From Octopus sinensis (Eukaryota): a stretch of 64,000 bases of DNA. The translations under genes and the position numbers were made by a program. The stretch lies in NCBI RefSeq assembly GCF_006345805.1, contig NC_043010.1:9548001-9612000 (forward strand), given 5' to 3'. The notes below the pieces were generated by a model that saw nothing but the letters and a program-made list of their open reading frames with translations, ran no database searches and had not been told where the DNA came from. Numbering within the stretch: position 1 is the first letter of the stretch; each line of letters begins with the position of its first letter. Below, piece by piece: positions 6,258-63,689 of this stretch.

Positions 6258-6644
6258 ATTATACACATCAAAAGGTGTGCTCTTACAATATGTGTCTATT
6301 GAGCATTGTATTTCGCTTATATTGGGAGAAAACAAGAAGTAGCCAAAAATAAAGATAAAATTGTGAAATTGCAGACCGGCCATGTCCACCATCTCACAAT
6401 TTTCCCTTTAGTTTTGTCTTTATTTATACTTCTTGTTTCCTCCCAAAATAAGCAAATGTATAATGTAAGAGTGTATCATTCAATGCAAGTCTGATGAAGT
6501 GCCATGCAAGTATTTAAAATTGCAAATATTATGCAATTTTCCACACTGATCTTTTGAAGGCCATAATTATAAAAATTGAGTGGTACAGAAACGATTGTAA
6601 CTGGTCATTAAAGATGTGTTAAACTTTTTTTATTTGGATCATAT

Positions 6645-38635: not shown

Positions 38636-39135
<500 letters not shown>

Positions 39136-39629
39136 TTATAATTTATATAGTCTCTGTTTATAATACTATACTTGTATAATATTCAACTTTTAGTTTTTTA
39201 TTGGCTTCAGTGATTGAATTACAATCATGCTGATGCTCAATCATCAAGGATTTTAGTCAATGATATCAATCACAGTACTTATTCCAGATTGGTAGAAGAT
39301 GATTGCTTTAAGTGTACCGAGTGGTGGAATCAGTCCAGGAAGCATGTTACTTAAAAGTAAACTTCTTAATCACATAACTACACCTACAAACACAAGCACA
39401 TACACACAGATACATGTGTATGTGTGTGTGTATATATATATATATCCATATATATATATTTTTAATACTTTTCTCACTGTATTACTTGTTCATTTCCCAT
39501 TTTTTTTTCCCATCAATGATTTAATTTTTGATCTTCTATATAAACGTAGATATTTCCTTCATCAGGCTGTTTTTTCTACAAAATGATGAGAAGTTACATT
39601 GCGGAACTGTTATTTTAATGAGTTGTATC

Positions 39630-39745
39630 TGTTTATCACCCAACGAGATACATTTGCACTACCGGATGTTCCTGAACCAGTTGTTGAGTGTCCCACCCAT
39701 GAGGGATCAGTGTTAGATGTGTCGAAACAATTGTCGTGATAAATA
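39630..39745 (+). ncRNA. Type I hammerhead ribozyme fold with mutated core (probably inactive)
   Basis: Stem I tgtttatcac/gtgataaata; core CCAACGA instead of CUGANGA; long stem II gatacatttgcact/agtgttagatgtgtc; GAAA; palindromic stem III acaattgt; GUC site. Confidence 0.7.
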
Positions 39746-39824
39746 AATTCTTGTATATTCCATCTTCCATCATATATTTGGCATATATATATATATATAT
39801 ATAATATATATATATAATATATAT

Positions 39825-39856
<32 letters not shown>

Positions 39857-40426
39857 CATATATAGTTAATCCAAACAAGAAAGCACAAAAAAACACAACA
39901 ACGCGAGGATGTGGAACAAATATAGTATTATTGGACGCTCAGGAAAGAAGGAAAGAAAATAATACTACCACTACCACAAAAATAACAACCTCCTCTTTAA
40001 GAGGTCATGTGTTTTGGAAAGGTTTAATGAAAGCGCTTACACACCAGAAAAAGACCTCTTCACAAAAAAGGTTCGTAACATCCTCATAAAAGATTTTTTA
40101 ATATTTTTTTTCAAAATCACCTTTACACTTCAAAAACTGTATTAAGTAATCCTCATAGACTTTCAAATATATATATATATATATATATTTAATCAATATA
40201 GGGTGGCAGAAAAAAATTTTGTAGAATTCTTTTTGCCACCAGCGGCCTAGTGGGAAAAAATTAAATAGTCATAGACCATTTTAAGTTCAACATCAACAAT
40301 CAGGAACGGCCATGATGGCCATGAATAACGCCACAGCTAGAAATTAACAGCAAAAGCTTCAAACTCAGCGCAAATAAAGATTAATTCCGTAACAGGAGAA
40401 AATTTAAAAAACATTTACCCTGTTAA

Positions 40427-40532
40427 TTTTCTTGTACGATGCACCGTTTCATCTGCTGTTTAATGGTAAACTAACCTGATTAAATTGAATCAAGCCAATC
40501 TTCCATAGGCCTCAGATTCTTCAGCAAGAAAT
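40427..40532 (-). ncRNA. Type I hammerhead ribozyme (repeat copy 1)
   Basis: Reverse complement of the motif at 41369-41474. Confidence 0.8.
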
Positions 40533-41368
40533 AGCCAAGTCGGAACAGATATTTTCACGAGGCATTTCAAACCCTGCCAAGGTAATATCTGACCTACCTA
40601 AATTTTCAAATCGTCGCGCGCCAAATATTTATCGGCAGCAAATAAATATAAGCCGTCGATTCCATACGGAATTAACCACAAAACATGACAATTCATAATA
40701 ATCAATATAGGGGGCAGAAAAAAATTTTGTAGAATTCTTTTTGCCACCAGCGGCCTAGTGGGAAAAAATTAAATAGTCATAGACCATTTTTAAGTTCATC
40801 AACATCAACAATCAAGGAACGGCCATGATAGGCCATTCACCCACTAGAAATAACAGCCAAAGCTTCAACCGCAAATAAAGATTAATTCCGTAAACAGGAG
40901 AAAATTTAAAAAACATTTACCCTGTAATTTCTTGTACGATGCACCGTTTCATCTGCTGTTTAATGGTAAACTAACCTGATTAAATTGAATCAAGCCAATT
41001 TTTTTAAATTTTCTCCTGTTTACGGAATTAATCTTTATTTGCGGTTGAAGCTTTGGCTGTTATTTCTAGTGGGTGAATGGCCTATCATGGCCGTTCCTTG
41101 ATTGTTGATGTTGAACTTAAAAATGGTCTATGACTATTTAATTTTTTCCCACTAGGCCGCTGGTGGCAAAAAGAATTCTACAAAATTTTTTTCTGCCACC
41201 CTATATTGATTAATTATGATTTTCTGGTTAATTCCATAATGGAATCGACGGCTTATATTTATATTTGCTGCCGATAAATTTGGCGCGAGTGCGACGATTT
41301 GAAAAATTTCAGATATTACCTTGGCAGGGTTTGAAATGCCTCGTGAAAATATCTGTTCCGACTTGGCT

Positions 41369-41474
41369 ATTTCTTGCTGAAGAATCTGAGGGCCTATGGA
41401 AGATTGGCTTGATTCAATTTAATCAGGTTAGTTTACATTAAACAGCAGATGAAACGGTGCATCGTACAAGAAAT
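41369..41474 (+). ncRNA. Type I hammerhead ribozyme (repeat copy 2)
   Basis: Stem I atttcttg/caagaaat; CTGAAGA 41377-83; stem II atctg/cagat; GAAA 41451-54; self-complementary stem III acggtgcatcgt; GUA site at 41466. Confidence 0.85.
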
Positions 41475-41854
41475 TACAGGGTAAATGTTTTTTTAAATTT
41501 TCTCCTGTTACGGAATTAATCTTTATTTGCGGTTGAAGCTTTGGCTGTTATTTCTAGTGGGTGAATGGCCTATCATGGCCGTTCCTTGATGTTGATGTTG
41601 AACTTAAAAATGGTCTATGACTATTTAATTTTTTCCCACTAGGCCGCTGGTGGCAAAAAGAATTCTACAAAATTTTTTTCTGCACCCTATATTGATTAAT
41701 TATGAATTTTCTGTTAATTCCGTAATGGAATCGACGGCTTATATTTATTTGCTGCCGATAAATTTGGCGCGAGTGCGACGATTGAAAATTTTAGGTCAGA
41801 TATTACCTTGGCGGGTTTGAAATGCCTCGTGAAAATATCTGTTCCGACTTGGCT

Positions 41855-41961
41855 ATTTCTTGCTGAAGAATCTGAGGGCCTATGGAAGATTGGCTTGATT
41901 CAATTTAATCAGGTTAGTTTACCATTAAACAGCAGATGAAACGGTGCATCGTACAAGAAAT
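41855..41961 (+). ncRNA. Type I hammerhead ribozyme (repeat copy 3)
   Basis: Identical core and stems; GUA site at 41953. Confidence 0.85.
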
Positions 41962-42079
41962 TACAGGGTAAATGTTTTTTAAATTTTCTCCTGTTTACGG
42001 AATTAATCTTTATTTGCGGTTGAAGCTTTGGCTGTTATTCTAGTGGGTGAATGGCCTATCATGGCCGTTCCTTGATTGT

Positions 42080-42113
<34 letters not shown>

Positions 42114-42295
42114 CATTATATATAAGGGCTTAGTAAAATAAATTACTTTGCCACATACTGAACTCATTAGAAATAGCAGCTAAAGAAATTTCTTCAGCTA
42201 TTTCTAATACTTAAAAGATCTCTCTCAGATAGTGTTTGCCTAAACCAACTCACAAAAGTATGGGGGAAAAAACATTAAAAACAAGTGCAAAGGTT

Positions 42296-42354
42296 ATTTG
42301 AGAACGTACGTTTCTAGATTAGTCAATTCGACATTTCTTTCTTCAGCTCAGAAT
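42296..42354 (-). ncRNA. Type I hammerhead ribozyme, different family, slightly degenerate
   Basis: Minus strand attctgag CTGAAGA aagaaatgtcgaattgactaatcta GAAA cgtacg TT ctcaaat; palindromic stem III acgtacgt; first stem II pair is an A/A mismatch. Lies in a (TA)n-flanked insert at 42111-42435. Confidence 0.65.
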
Positions 42355-42454
42355 TCCTTGAATGGTCCCTTTACATACTGAACACTTGGTGAAACTGATT
42401 AATAATTAATTAATTTTACCCTCAATTGTTGAAATTATATATATATATATATAT

Positions 42455-42573
42455 TTACGTTTATATATTCGTTTTGCAAGATTCTTGATGTGAATGCGTG
42501 TGTTGAAACAGATATTGTTGCATTTGGGGATGGTCATGTTGCCAGTTTATCCAATGAAAACATACACACACAC

Positions 42574-42604
<31 letters not shown>

Positions 42605-42893
42605 GAATTTCACTTGCTTCAGCTTTGTTTTATATTCATTGTATTTTGGCCAGAGTTCTTTCATCACACTCCTGTGACCTCATCAGTGGTTCTTTGCTTT
42701 CTTCTTCTTTCTTTTGTTTTTTCTTTGTAGGATTGTTAGTAAGGAGAGACACAAAAAAGAAAGAAGAAAGCAAAGGGCCACTGATGAGATCACAGAAGTG
42801 TGACGAAAGAACTGTAGCCCAAATGCATTTAATATAAAATAAAGCTGAAGCAAGTGAACACCAGATGTATAGTGCATGTGTTTTCATTGGCTA
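42455..42893. mobile_element. Divergent inverted duplication of a Penelope-like terminal segment, each arm with a minimal HHR
   Basis: Arms about 42548-42724 and 42745-42893 are reverse complements; HHRs at 42646-42692 (-) and 42775-42820 (+): gggcca CTGATGA gatcaca gaag tgtgac GAAA gaactg tagccc. Confidence 0.7.
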
Positions 42894-42901
42894 ATATATA
42901 T

Positions 42902-42943
<42 letters not shown>

Positions 42944-43529
42944 ATGTATATTATGTATGTGTATGTATGTATGTATGTATGCATGTATGCATGTAGGCAT
43001 GTATGTATGTATGTATGTATATATATATATATATATATATTATATAATATATGACCTTGACCTTGACCTTTCAGTTTCTATCTGCCAAATCCACTTATGA
43101 GGCTTTAGGCTGCCCAAGGTCATAGAAGGAGATACTTGCTCGAGGGGATCATGCAACGGGACTGAACCCCAAACCACGTGAGTGTGAAACAAACATCTTA
43201 CTACATAACACTTAATACTTTATCACACAGCCATATCTACAGCTTTATATACATATATATATATATATATAATGTGCATTTTTTTGCTTCCCGTCTAGCA
43301 AATCAACTCGCAAGATTATGGTGAGTTGTAATAGTTTTTATAAGTCTGTTTCCTTTTCCGTGTATTTCTGAGGCATTTTGCTTCATGATAAATCATAAAA
43401 GAAACCAATTAGGGCAATCTGTTGGGGAAACGATGCCAAAGAAGACACACAGGGCATGATTCAATCCCCTGACTCATCAGATCCGGTCAAACTATTCAAC
43501 CCATGCCGACATCTTGGAAGACGGGCTTT

Positions 43530-59900: not shown

Positions 59901-60144
59901 CGATTCACTACAGCTGTTTCCAATAAATTTTTAGTTGATTAACGGGGATATTACATCATTATAAAAAAACAATTTTCACCAGGTGAATACATGAACCACA
60001 GCAAGAGTGATAGAGTCAAGAAGATGCGCATCCCATTGGCTCTTGAATGTTTTTGAATGCTGTGGCTCGTGGATTCTTCTGATGAAAACGGATTTTTCTC
60101 CATTAATCAATTAAAAATTCGTTGGAAACAGCTGTAGTGAATTG
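59901..60144. repeat. Long imperfect palindrome (foldback MITE-like)
   Basis: attcactacagctgtttccaa / ttggaaacagctgtagtgaat; pairing continues inward (ttttcaccaggtgaatacatgaaccacagca / tgctgtggctcgtggattcttctgatgaaaa). Confidence 0.75.
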
Positions 60145-63255: not shown

Positions 63256-63689
63256 TATACAACAGGTTTCTTTTAGTTTCCATCTACCAAACCCACTCAC
63301 AAAGCTTTGGTCAGCCTGTGGCTAAAGTAAAAGACACTCGCCCAAGGTGCCATGCAGTGGGACTGAACTCGGATCCATGTGGTTGAGAAGCAAGCTTCTT
63401 ACCACATAGCCACTTCTGTGACTCCAATAAATAAATAATGTATGTATGTATTTATGTATGTATGTATGTATGAATGTATGTATGTATGCATGTGTATATG
63501 TTATATGAAATACGGTGTCCTTACAAGCAAGTAATATGCACATACCAGTTGCCAGGAATGTGCTTCTTACACAAAATTGGTCTATCCAAAGTTTGGTGGC
63601 TATTAAGCAATGTGTTTGTGGTTCTCCAGTGGGTTGGCTGTGTACTGATGAAGGAGCACAAAAACTCTTGAAATATGTATATACACCTA

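What the first reader, a model, noticed from the sequence alone, without database searches (positions are those of the whole stretch)
39460..42893. Nest of at least four unrelated hammerhead-bearing element families, each inserted in (TA)n
Seen: within 3.4 kb, inserts at 39460-39783, 40189-42083, 42111-42435 and 42455-42893 are bounded by (TA)n tracts. They share no evident sequence beyond the HHR core. Elsewhere in the 64 kb such motifs are rare even though (TA)n is abundant. Inference: a guild of ribozyme retroelements targets TA microsatellites and accumulates at hotspots, possibly regenerating its own target sites.
Basis: partly seen in the sequence, partly recalled or inferred. Interest (0 to 1): 0.75.

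Follow-up and report, generated by a model that had tools for sequence, protein, structure and literature searches.

The report
Ribozyme retroelement pile-up in TA repeats
A 3.4-kb patch of TA-repeat DNA holds end-pieces of six different jumping-gene families, five with a predicted self-cutting hammerhead RNA, which likely piled up because Penelope-type enzymes all aim at TA repeats and usually leave TA on both sides; this is a known kind of element, but mirror-image insertions pair one long end with one short end, which likely reflects how the enzyme starts copying.

Summary
The nest is real and larger than reported: six families. Three are 3' ends of Penelope-like elements (PLEs) whose other copies run into GIY-YIG coding sequence (Hydra-type, Neptune-type, one unassigned). 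Two are young non-coding tandem repeats (492 and 558 nt) with type I hammerheads, i.e. non-LTR retrozymes. One is a 93-nt stub. Rfam finds no hammerhead; my descriptor finds 6 in the nest, 30 per random Mb and 0-1 in shuffles, and stems covary between sister families. Family 3' ends abut (TA)n far above the 3.5% background. TA targeting by PLEs is published. Genome-wide hotspots are not supported: other families lie near 4-5% of copies, as near as they lie to 5-6% of random TA tracts. A shared target plus splitting of the tract makes a six-member nest rare but plausible. By-product: two-armed insertions carry one tail-less and one tailed end (52 mixed, 0 matched, 12 unclassified of 64), also in retrozymes, with 57-107-nt tails and one haplotype per array. 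That is direct structural evidence that PLE enzymes insert retrozymes. The scan noted similar inverted PLE/retrozyme insertions in other genomes, none by sequence. Cleavage, circular RNA and empty sites are untested.

The parts
39431..39459 (.). (TA)n tract, left boundary of the nest
39460..39782 (+). E1: 5'-truncated 3' end (pLTR) of an old Hydra-type PLE family; 86% to family consensus. Type I hammerhead about 39632-39743, core decayed by a CpG change (G5 to A); family core has U4C
   Evidence: 11 of 29 other copies run into Hydra-type endonuclease sequence
39783..39864 (.). (TA)n tract shared by the 3' ends of E1 and E5a
39865..39957 (-). E5a: 93-nt 3' stub of a ~206-nt non-coding SINE-like family (9 copies per random Mb); 100% to consensus; the family's minimal hammerhead is cut off here
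39957..40166 (+).
   Evidence: 12 of 28 other copies run into RT/GIY-YIG sequence
40167..40188 (.). (TA)n tract between E5b and E2
40189..41002 (-). E2 left arm: tandem 492-nt retrozyme units, outer end is the tailed (B) end; intact hammerhead with core at 40524-40518
41000..42083 (+). E2 right arm: 2.2 units, outer end is the tail-less (A) end; intact hammerheads about 41369-41474 and 41855-41961; hairpin at about 42050-42070 upstream of the end
42082..42111 (.). (TA)n tract shared by the A ends of E2 and E3
42112..42363 (-). E3 left arm: part of a 558-nt tandem retrozyme unit, A end; type I hammerhead with core at 42346-42340; 98% to consensus
42361..42435 (+). E3 right arm: the ~95-nt tail, B end
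42436..42454 (.). (TA)n tract between the B ends of E3 and E4
42455..42725 (-). E4 left arm: pLTR of an RT plus GIY-YIG PLE, tailed end; hammerhead core 42686-42680; an internal TATATA seed is replaced by a 31-nt TA tract at 42574-42604
   Evidence: 12 of 29 other copies run into the ORF
42731..42893 (+). E4 right arm, 93% to consensus, ending short of both usual ends; hammerhead core 42781-42787 with G at the cleavage position (predicted inactive)
42894..43052 (.). (TA)n/(TATG)n tract, right boundary

Best explanation
The nest is a stack of at least six separate insertions of different ages, likely made by endonuclease-bearing Penelope-like retrotransposon proteins that cut (TA)n and copy either their own RNA (E1, E4, E5b) or non-coding hammerhead RNAs in trans (E2, E3, E5a). 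Shown: the families are distinct, their 3' ends are fixed and abut TA, insertions are usually flanked by TA on both sides, and copies range from 82-87% to 98-100% identity to their consensus. Inferred: each insertion splits the tract and so adds a target, which lets rare tracts collect many elements without any special hotspot. Also inferred: both strands of the cut are primed, one at the upstream start site (A) and one at the downstream site (B) of the RNA, probably by the two halves of a dimeric protein; this gives head-to-head arms with exactly one tail. The hammerheads are predicted to process the tandem transcripts.
For: TA at 3' ends (at least 10 of 12 matches; background 3.5%): E2 27 of 31 terminal ends, E3 42 of 47 rows, E5a 33 of 42, E5b 19 of 30, E1 18 of 38, E4 15 of 47 (counted by hand; rows include tail read-through and truncated hits). 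22 of 25 random hammerhead insertions have TA downstream. Coding links. Frames of 882-914 aa without a stop exist in E4's sister subfamily. No hotspot excess: 7 of 158 loci have another nest family within 300 bp, against 27 of 579 random tracts; 8 other-family hammerheads within 500 bp of 158 loci, against 36 of 557 random tracts. Both flanks TA in 18 of 21 E2 arrays. One A end plus one B end in 52 of 64 two-armed insertions of five families, 0 AA or BB. One haplotype across both arms within each of 21 E2 arrays, bar a few single-unit differences. Hammerhead covariation E2 versus sister: 3 double changes in 8 stem I pairs, 4 in 4 stem II pairs, 1 in stem III. Literature: TA bias, inversion and one-sided tail (PMC8557442); two internal RT start sites, both strands cut and extended, predicted dimer (PMC11167929).
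Against: Flank neighbours are modestly above a uniform expectation (12 vs 6.4, p 0.03; 17 vs 10.4, p 0.04), so some clustering beyond the shared target is not excluded at this sample size. The splitting model predicts only 0.02-3.6 six-member nests per genome for per-tract rates of 0.05-0.12, so this nest is at the extreme tail. No coding partner was found for E2, E3 or E5a (0 linked of 29, 29 and 30 loci). E5a joins E5b without TA. The 158 loci are best hits, not random copies. The E3 and E4-left motifs do not fold as the minimum-energy structure. No RNA or bench data.
Confidence: 0.75

Rival explanations
1. The site is a true hotspot: some long or structured TA tracts (or their chromatin) attract many PLE families far more often than average.
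For: Six insertions in 3.4 kb where 0.065 are expected from 19 per Mb. The same spot was hit in at least three age classes. Flank excess of 1.6-1.9-fold.
Against: Neighbour rates equal per-tract occupancy. Occupancy does not rise with present tract length (17 of 263, 15 of 229, 4 of 65). Insertions per random 10 kb are not overdispersed (mean 0.19, variance 0.20).
Confidence: 0.2
2. The TA tracts are made or extended by the insertion process (untemplated or slippage synthesis by the telomerase-like RT, or expansion from AT-rich element ends), not chosen as pre-existing targets.
For: Element ends are AT-rich and merge into the tract. A seed inside E4 has become a 31-nt tract. E4's sister carries its own tract in 6 of 6 copies.
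Against: One-armed arrays have TA at their variable 5' junction too (L295, L296, L299). A purified PLE protein cuts AT-rich DNA (PMC11167929). Tracts are abundant without elements (625 per Mb, about 5% occupied).
Confidence: 0.12
3. E2 and E3 are minisatellites that arose from PLE ends and grow locally by unequal crossover; the ribozymes are relics.
For: Proposed as one route in 10.64898/2026.07.22.740005, where 8 of 9 tested dimers did not cleave. No RNA evidence here.
Against: Dispersed young arrays (97-99%) with fixed ends, PLE-type inversion and one haplotype across the inversion. Hammerhead stems covary between 72%-identical sister families.
Confidence: 0.06
4. The nest or the inverted arrays are assembly artefacts at low-complexity DNA.
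For: One E2 unit is only 91% identical, with many indels; some arrays adjoin gaps.
Against: The same architecture and the A+B rule recur at dozens of loci in five families. Junction positions differ from locus to locus.
Confidence: 0.04

Closest known systems
EN+ Penelope-like elements, Hydra clade (Craig et al. 2021, PMC8557442; seen: passages and section 11)
   Same: E1 family: C-terminal GIY-YIG with a CxCX5C linker and CxxC/CxH motifs around the conserved E and N, a hammerhead in the 3' repeat, insertion into (TA)n.
   Different: The family core is U4C. Only decayed endonuclease pieces were seen (longest frame 354 aa among 150 listed). RT motifs were not examined.
EN+ PLEs of Neptune/Nematis type with minimal hammerheads (PMC8557442 passages; Cervera and de la Pena 2014, PMC4209133, parts 1-2 of 4)
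   Same: E5b and E4: CX4CxxC linker, GIY-YIG, pLTR hammerheads with a short or missing helix III. The U3-A8 core variant and the unpaired base after A9 are described there. Inverted 5' copy and one-sided tail.
   Different: E4's tail is about 57 nt against the 30-40 bp reported. The clades of E4 and E5b were not fixed by a tree.
Metazoan non-LTR retrozymes (Cervera and de la Pena 2020, PMC7229834, passages; Li et al. 2026, 10.64898/2026.07.22.740005, parts 1-3 of 5)
   Same: E2 and E3: non-coding, low-GC tandem units, each with a type I hammerhead; PLE origin proposed.
   Different: Units of 492 and 558 nt, above the 150-450 bp of the 2020 paper but within the 51-972 bp of the 2026 preprint. 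Head-to-head inversion, a strict one-tail rule, 95-107-nt tails and TA targeting were not mentioned for retrozymes in the parts I read.
Poseidon element PAc in vitro (Frangieh et al. 2024, PMC11167929; parts 1-2 of 4)
   Same: Two internal RT start sites that define the tail; both strands cut and extended at AT-rich DNA; predicted dimer.
   Different: There both sites lie at one AC-rich stem-loop and both strands use the same starts. Here sites are 57-107 nt apart, each follows its own hairpin in E2/E3, and the two arms never use the same site (0 of 52).

Membership tests
EN+ PLE (E1, E4, E5b) | 3' end continuous with a GIY-YIG endonuclease coding region | tested here: met
   11 of 29 E1, 12 of 29 E4 and 12 of 28 E5b other copies; Pfam GIY-YIG E 1e-4 for an E5b copy. 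The window copies themselves hold no coding sequence.
EN+ PLE (E1, E4, E5b) | RT upstream of the endonuclease in one ORF | tested here: inconclusive
   Met for E4's sister subfamily (914-aa frame, RVT_1 E 4.5e-4, below Pfam's cut-off). E5b copies match a 620-aa RT-EN frame in broken pieces. Not examined for E1.
EN+ PLE (E1, E4, E5b) | Hammerhead motif in the terminal repeat | tested here: met
   Family cores and stems, (E4 23 of 29 copies with the canonical core; E5b 21 of 29 U3-A8; E1 scattered by CpG decay).
EN+ PLE insertion signature | Partial tandems, inverted 5' copy, tail at one end, microsatellite target | tested here: met
Hydra clade (E1) | CxCX5C linker; CxxC and CxH flanking E and N | tested here: met
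   Translations of E1 copies, read against section 11 of PMC8557442.
Hydra clade (E1) | RT motifs (RWK, DKT) and phylogenetic placement | not tested
   No E1 RT was extracted; no tree was built.
Neptune clade (E5b) | CX2-5CxxC linker plus CCHH inside GIY-YIG | tested here: met
   shared with Nematis, so it does not separate the two. The label Neptune rests partly on recalled motif appearance.
Neptune clade (E5b) | RT phylogeny | not tested
   No reference PLE set was available from a tool.
Non-LTR retrozyme (E2, E3) | Tandem units each with a type I hammerhead | tested here: met
   Arrays of up to about 12 units; motif in the unit. E3 is a partial unit in the window but tandem elsewhere.
Non-LTR retrozyme (E2, E3) | Non-coding, GC below 50% | tested here: met
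   GC 0.37 and 0.34; longest ATG frame 55 and 34 aa; no linked PLE coding hit.
Non-LTR retrozyme (E2, E3) | Monomer of 150-450 bp (2020 definition) | tested here: not met
   492 and 558 nt; within the 51-972 bp range of the 2026 preprint.
Non-LTR retrozyme (E2, E3) | Self-cleavage | tested here: inconclusive
   Indirect only. 5' ends of arms lie -3 to +12 of the predicted cut in 8 of 55 E2 arms (1.8 expected) and 3 of 23 sister arms, but in 1 of 43 E3 and 0 of 23 E3-sister arms. The window was chosen after seeing the data, and stalling at stem I would look the same.
Non-LTR retrozyme (E2, E3) | Accumulation as circular RNA | not testable with these tools
   Only contigs were listed, no raw reads.
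Rfam hammerhead families | Covariance-model match | tested here: not met
   long stem II insertions and minimal helix III are the likely reason (inference).

The most novel reading that the evidence does not exclude
Non-coding retrozymes carry two separate hairpin signals that tell a borrowed Penelope-type RT where to start, and an asymmetric dimer always uses one signal on each strand of the cut TA target, copying one haplotype (possibly one circular RNA) into both arms. The one-tail rule is then an obligatory step of PLE integration, and retrozyme arrays are its direct footprint.
Probability: 0.4. Interest if true: 0.65.

Novelty: new member of a known kind. Interest (0 to 1): 0.42.

Why it matters
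The nest is a compact sample of a large, poorly annotated class: about 25-30 detectable hammerhead motifs per Mb in this genome, all missed by Rfam at this locus. How PLEs make tandem-plus-inverted insertions, and what mobilises animal retrozymes, are open questions (PMC8557442; 10.64898/2026.07.22.740005). The strict pairing of one tailed and one tail-less end, seen in coding and non-coding families alike, ties retrozymes to PLE machinery by structure. It gives a precise prediction that the existing in vitro PLE assay can test.

Tried and rejected
Rfam: no hammerhead match; the MIR837 hits reflect E4's inverted repeat. Genome-wide hotspot: no excess over per-tract occupancy. Autonomous partner for E2, E3 or E5a: none among 6 loci with long E4-type frames, 14 further PLE loci, or the families' own flanks. 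L1-style twin priming on one linear RNA: the inner start of one arm abuts the other arm's outer site in 2 of 21 E2 arrays, about 1.3 expected (read). Kinship of E2 and E3: z 0.5-2.7 against shuffles, with higher z for unrelated pairs (4.2, 3.5), so not shown. Hairpin stability at the eight ends is not exceptional within the monomers (5-64% of windows are as stable). A sequence alignment of E2 with its sister misaligned the stems, so the pair-counting tool was not used; pairs were read out by script. Sequencing runs: no RNA holder on record was listed, contigs only. No reads were laid, so empty sites and expression stay open. No related genomes are held. Literature searches for octopus hammerheads, TA nests and one-sided tails in retrozymes showed no description of this locus type or of the strict rule.
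Full report
Setting. The window lies on contig C14 of a 2.72-Gb genome. It is AT-rich and full of microsatellites and one abundant SINE. I take the host to be octopus-like from recalled SINE sequence and genome size; no call names it.

Observation. Rfam finds no hammerhead. A type I descriptor finds 9 motifs in the window, 6 of them in the nest, against 30 in 999,600 random genomic bases and 0, 0 and 1 in three shuffles. The random sample was 100 stretches of 10 kb drawn from 27 large contigs. Searching the genome with each piece shows six families, not four: E1, E5a, E5b, E2, E3 and E4, each with more than 1,000 first-look candidates. Apart from sister families they are unrelated by local alignment against shuffles. 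Window copies are 86% (E1), 87% (E5b), 82-93% (E4), 91-99% (E2), 93-98% (E3) and 100% (E5a) identical to their consensus, so the nest formed over a long time.

What the families are. Other copies of E1 continue upstream into an endonuclease with a CxCX5C linker and CxxC/CxH motifs (11 of 29 loci), the signature given for the Hydra clade, almost all of whose families insert into (TA)n (PMC8557442 section 11). E5b copies continue into a GIY-YIG domain with a CX4CxxC linker (12 of 28; Pfam E 1e-4), of Neptune or Nematis type. E4 copies continue into an RT plus GIY-YIG ORF (12 of 29), and a sister subfamily has frames of 882-914 aa without a stop. E2 (492 nt) and E3 (558 nt) are non-coding, low-GC tandem units with a hammerhead in each unit and no linked coding sequence, which fits non-LTR retrozymes (PMC7229834 passages; 10.64898/2026.07.22.740005 parts 1-3). 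E5a is a stub of a 206-nt SINE-like family with a minimal hammerhead.

Are the folds real? E2 against a 72% identical sister shows double changes in 3 of 8 stem I pairs, 4 of 4 stem II pairs and one stem III pair; only the first stem II position is unpaired (A-A) in the sister. E3 against its 67-77% sister keeps the stems with fewer changes. The U3-A8 core of E5b, the palindromic loop III and the extra base after A9 are features described for PLE hammerheads (PMC4209133). U4C, the family state of E1 and E5a, lowers activity in vitro but is tolerated in a viroid (PMC3088659, one passage). In the window the E1, E5b and right E4 motifs carry disabling changes. E1, E2 and right E4 fold at z about -2; E3, left E4 and E5b do not. 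5' ends of E2 arms cluster just downstream of the predicted cut (8 of 55, 1.8 expected; sister 3 of 23), but not in E3 (1 of 43) or its sister (0 of 23). The window was post hoc, and stalling at stem I is an alternative.

TA targeting. With a 3.5% background, 3' ends are followed by TA in 27 of 31 terminal rows for E2 (one internal row dropped), 42 of 47 for E3, 33 of 42 for E5a, 19 of 30 for E5b, 18 of 38 for E1 and 15 of 47 for E4 (hand count). Independently, 22 of 25 hammerhead insertions of many families in the random Mb have a TA tract within 450 nt downstream, against 21.6% of random positions. This bias is published for Hydra, Naiad and Neptune elements.

Hotspot or shared target? At 19 insertions of these families per Mb, 0.065 are expected in 3.4 kb, so the nest is extreme. 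Pairwise clustering, however, is what a shared target gives. Another nest family lies within 300 bp at 7 of 158 loci (15 overlapping loci and the window copies dropped), against 27 of 579 random TA tracts. Eight other-family hammerheads lie within 500 bp of those 158 loci, against 36 of 557 random tracts. Against a uniform null the flanks are enriched 1.6-1.9-fold (p 0.03-0.04). Insertions leave TA on both sides (18 of 21 E2 arrays), so each adds a target. A splitting model gives 0.02, 0.35 and 3.6 six-member nests per genome at per-tract rates of 0.05, 0.08 and 0.12; my rough estimate of the rate for all detected families is about 0.07. The nest is therefore rare but does not demand a hotspot. 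Elements also supply targets: E4's sister carries a TA tract in its 3' region in 6 of 6 copies, one with another hammerhead element inserted, and the window's E4 has a 31-nt TA tract at an internal seed.

Insertion anatomy. E2, E3, E4 and the two sister families each have two 3' ends, A and B, about 107, 95, 57, 96 and 96 nt apart. Of 64 two-armed insertions with both ends visible, 52 have one A and one B, none has AA or BB, and 12 have one unclassified end. In 21 E2 arrays the units of both arms share an array-specific haplotype, bar a few single-unit differences. Homogeneous source arrays would give the same pattern, so a circular template is allowed but not shown. In E2, E3 and their sisters each end lies about 12-19 nt downstream of a hairpin whose pairs covary between sisters by inspection, though such hairpins are common in these RNAs. 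L1-type twin priming on one linear RNA fits only 2 of 21 arrays. A one-sided 30-40-bp tail is known, and a purified PLE protein cuts and extends both strands from two internal start sites and is predicted to be a dimer (PMC11167929). My inference is that each strand of the cut is primed at a different site, and that retrozymes borrow this machinery. I found no statement of the strict rule, or of it in retrozymes; supplements and Repbase were not seen. A recent octopus repeat annotation does not use the word ribozyme (PMC13282606, passages).

Earlier scan notes. No sequence look-alike was found and no note held all my first search words. Notes from other genomes describe inverted PLE-type or retrozyme insertions with one-sided tails. 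Notes from this genome concern a different, permuted hammerhead.

Verdict. These are new members of known kinds, with one mechanistic by-product worth a bench test. Cleavage, circular RNA, empty sites and the autonomous partners of E2, E3 and E5a remain open.

Noticed in passing
window 39865-40166: E5a (young) and E5b (old) are joined 5' to 5' without a TA tract, with both 3' ends facing out into TA, mimicking a two-armed insertion made of two families; probably a later insertion with deletion of E5b's upstream part.
   Followed up: partly
window 60079-60136 (+) and 63645-63681 (+): Two further type I hammerhead-like motifs of other families; the second abuts an assembly gap. A weaker third lies at 6491.
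   Followed up: no
L312 4524-7168 and L313 4839-5600: Other small nests: a hammerhead element inside the internal TA tract of an E4-sister PLE with a 914-aa frame, and an E2-sister array directly after another copy.
   Followed up: partly
E1 and E5a family alignments: Two unrelated families share the U4C core variant; several random-sample families use U3-A8; the E4 sister has C at position 9.
   Followed up: partly
E2, E3 and sisters, last 230 nt before the B end: Short co-linear motifs shared by all four families may mark distant kinship or a common partner protein; not significant in pairwise tests.
   Followed up: partly
L318-L324: A younger Neptune-type family with frames up to 620 aa; its 3' end matches none of the nest families.
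   Followed up: partly
window 38800-39140, 43050-43240 and about 15 other copies: The abundant SINE (123 copies per random Mb) carries microsatellites in its middle; the nest sits between a SINE tail and a SINE 3' half, so SINEs may seed many of the TA targets.
   Followed up: no
L291: An E2 array with three internal restarts from the B site back to just after the predicted cleavage site, suggesting template jumps on a cleaved RNA piece.
   Followed up: no
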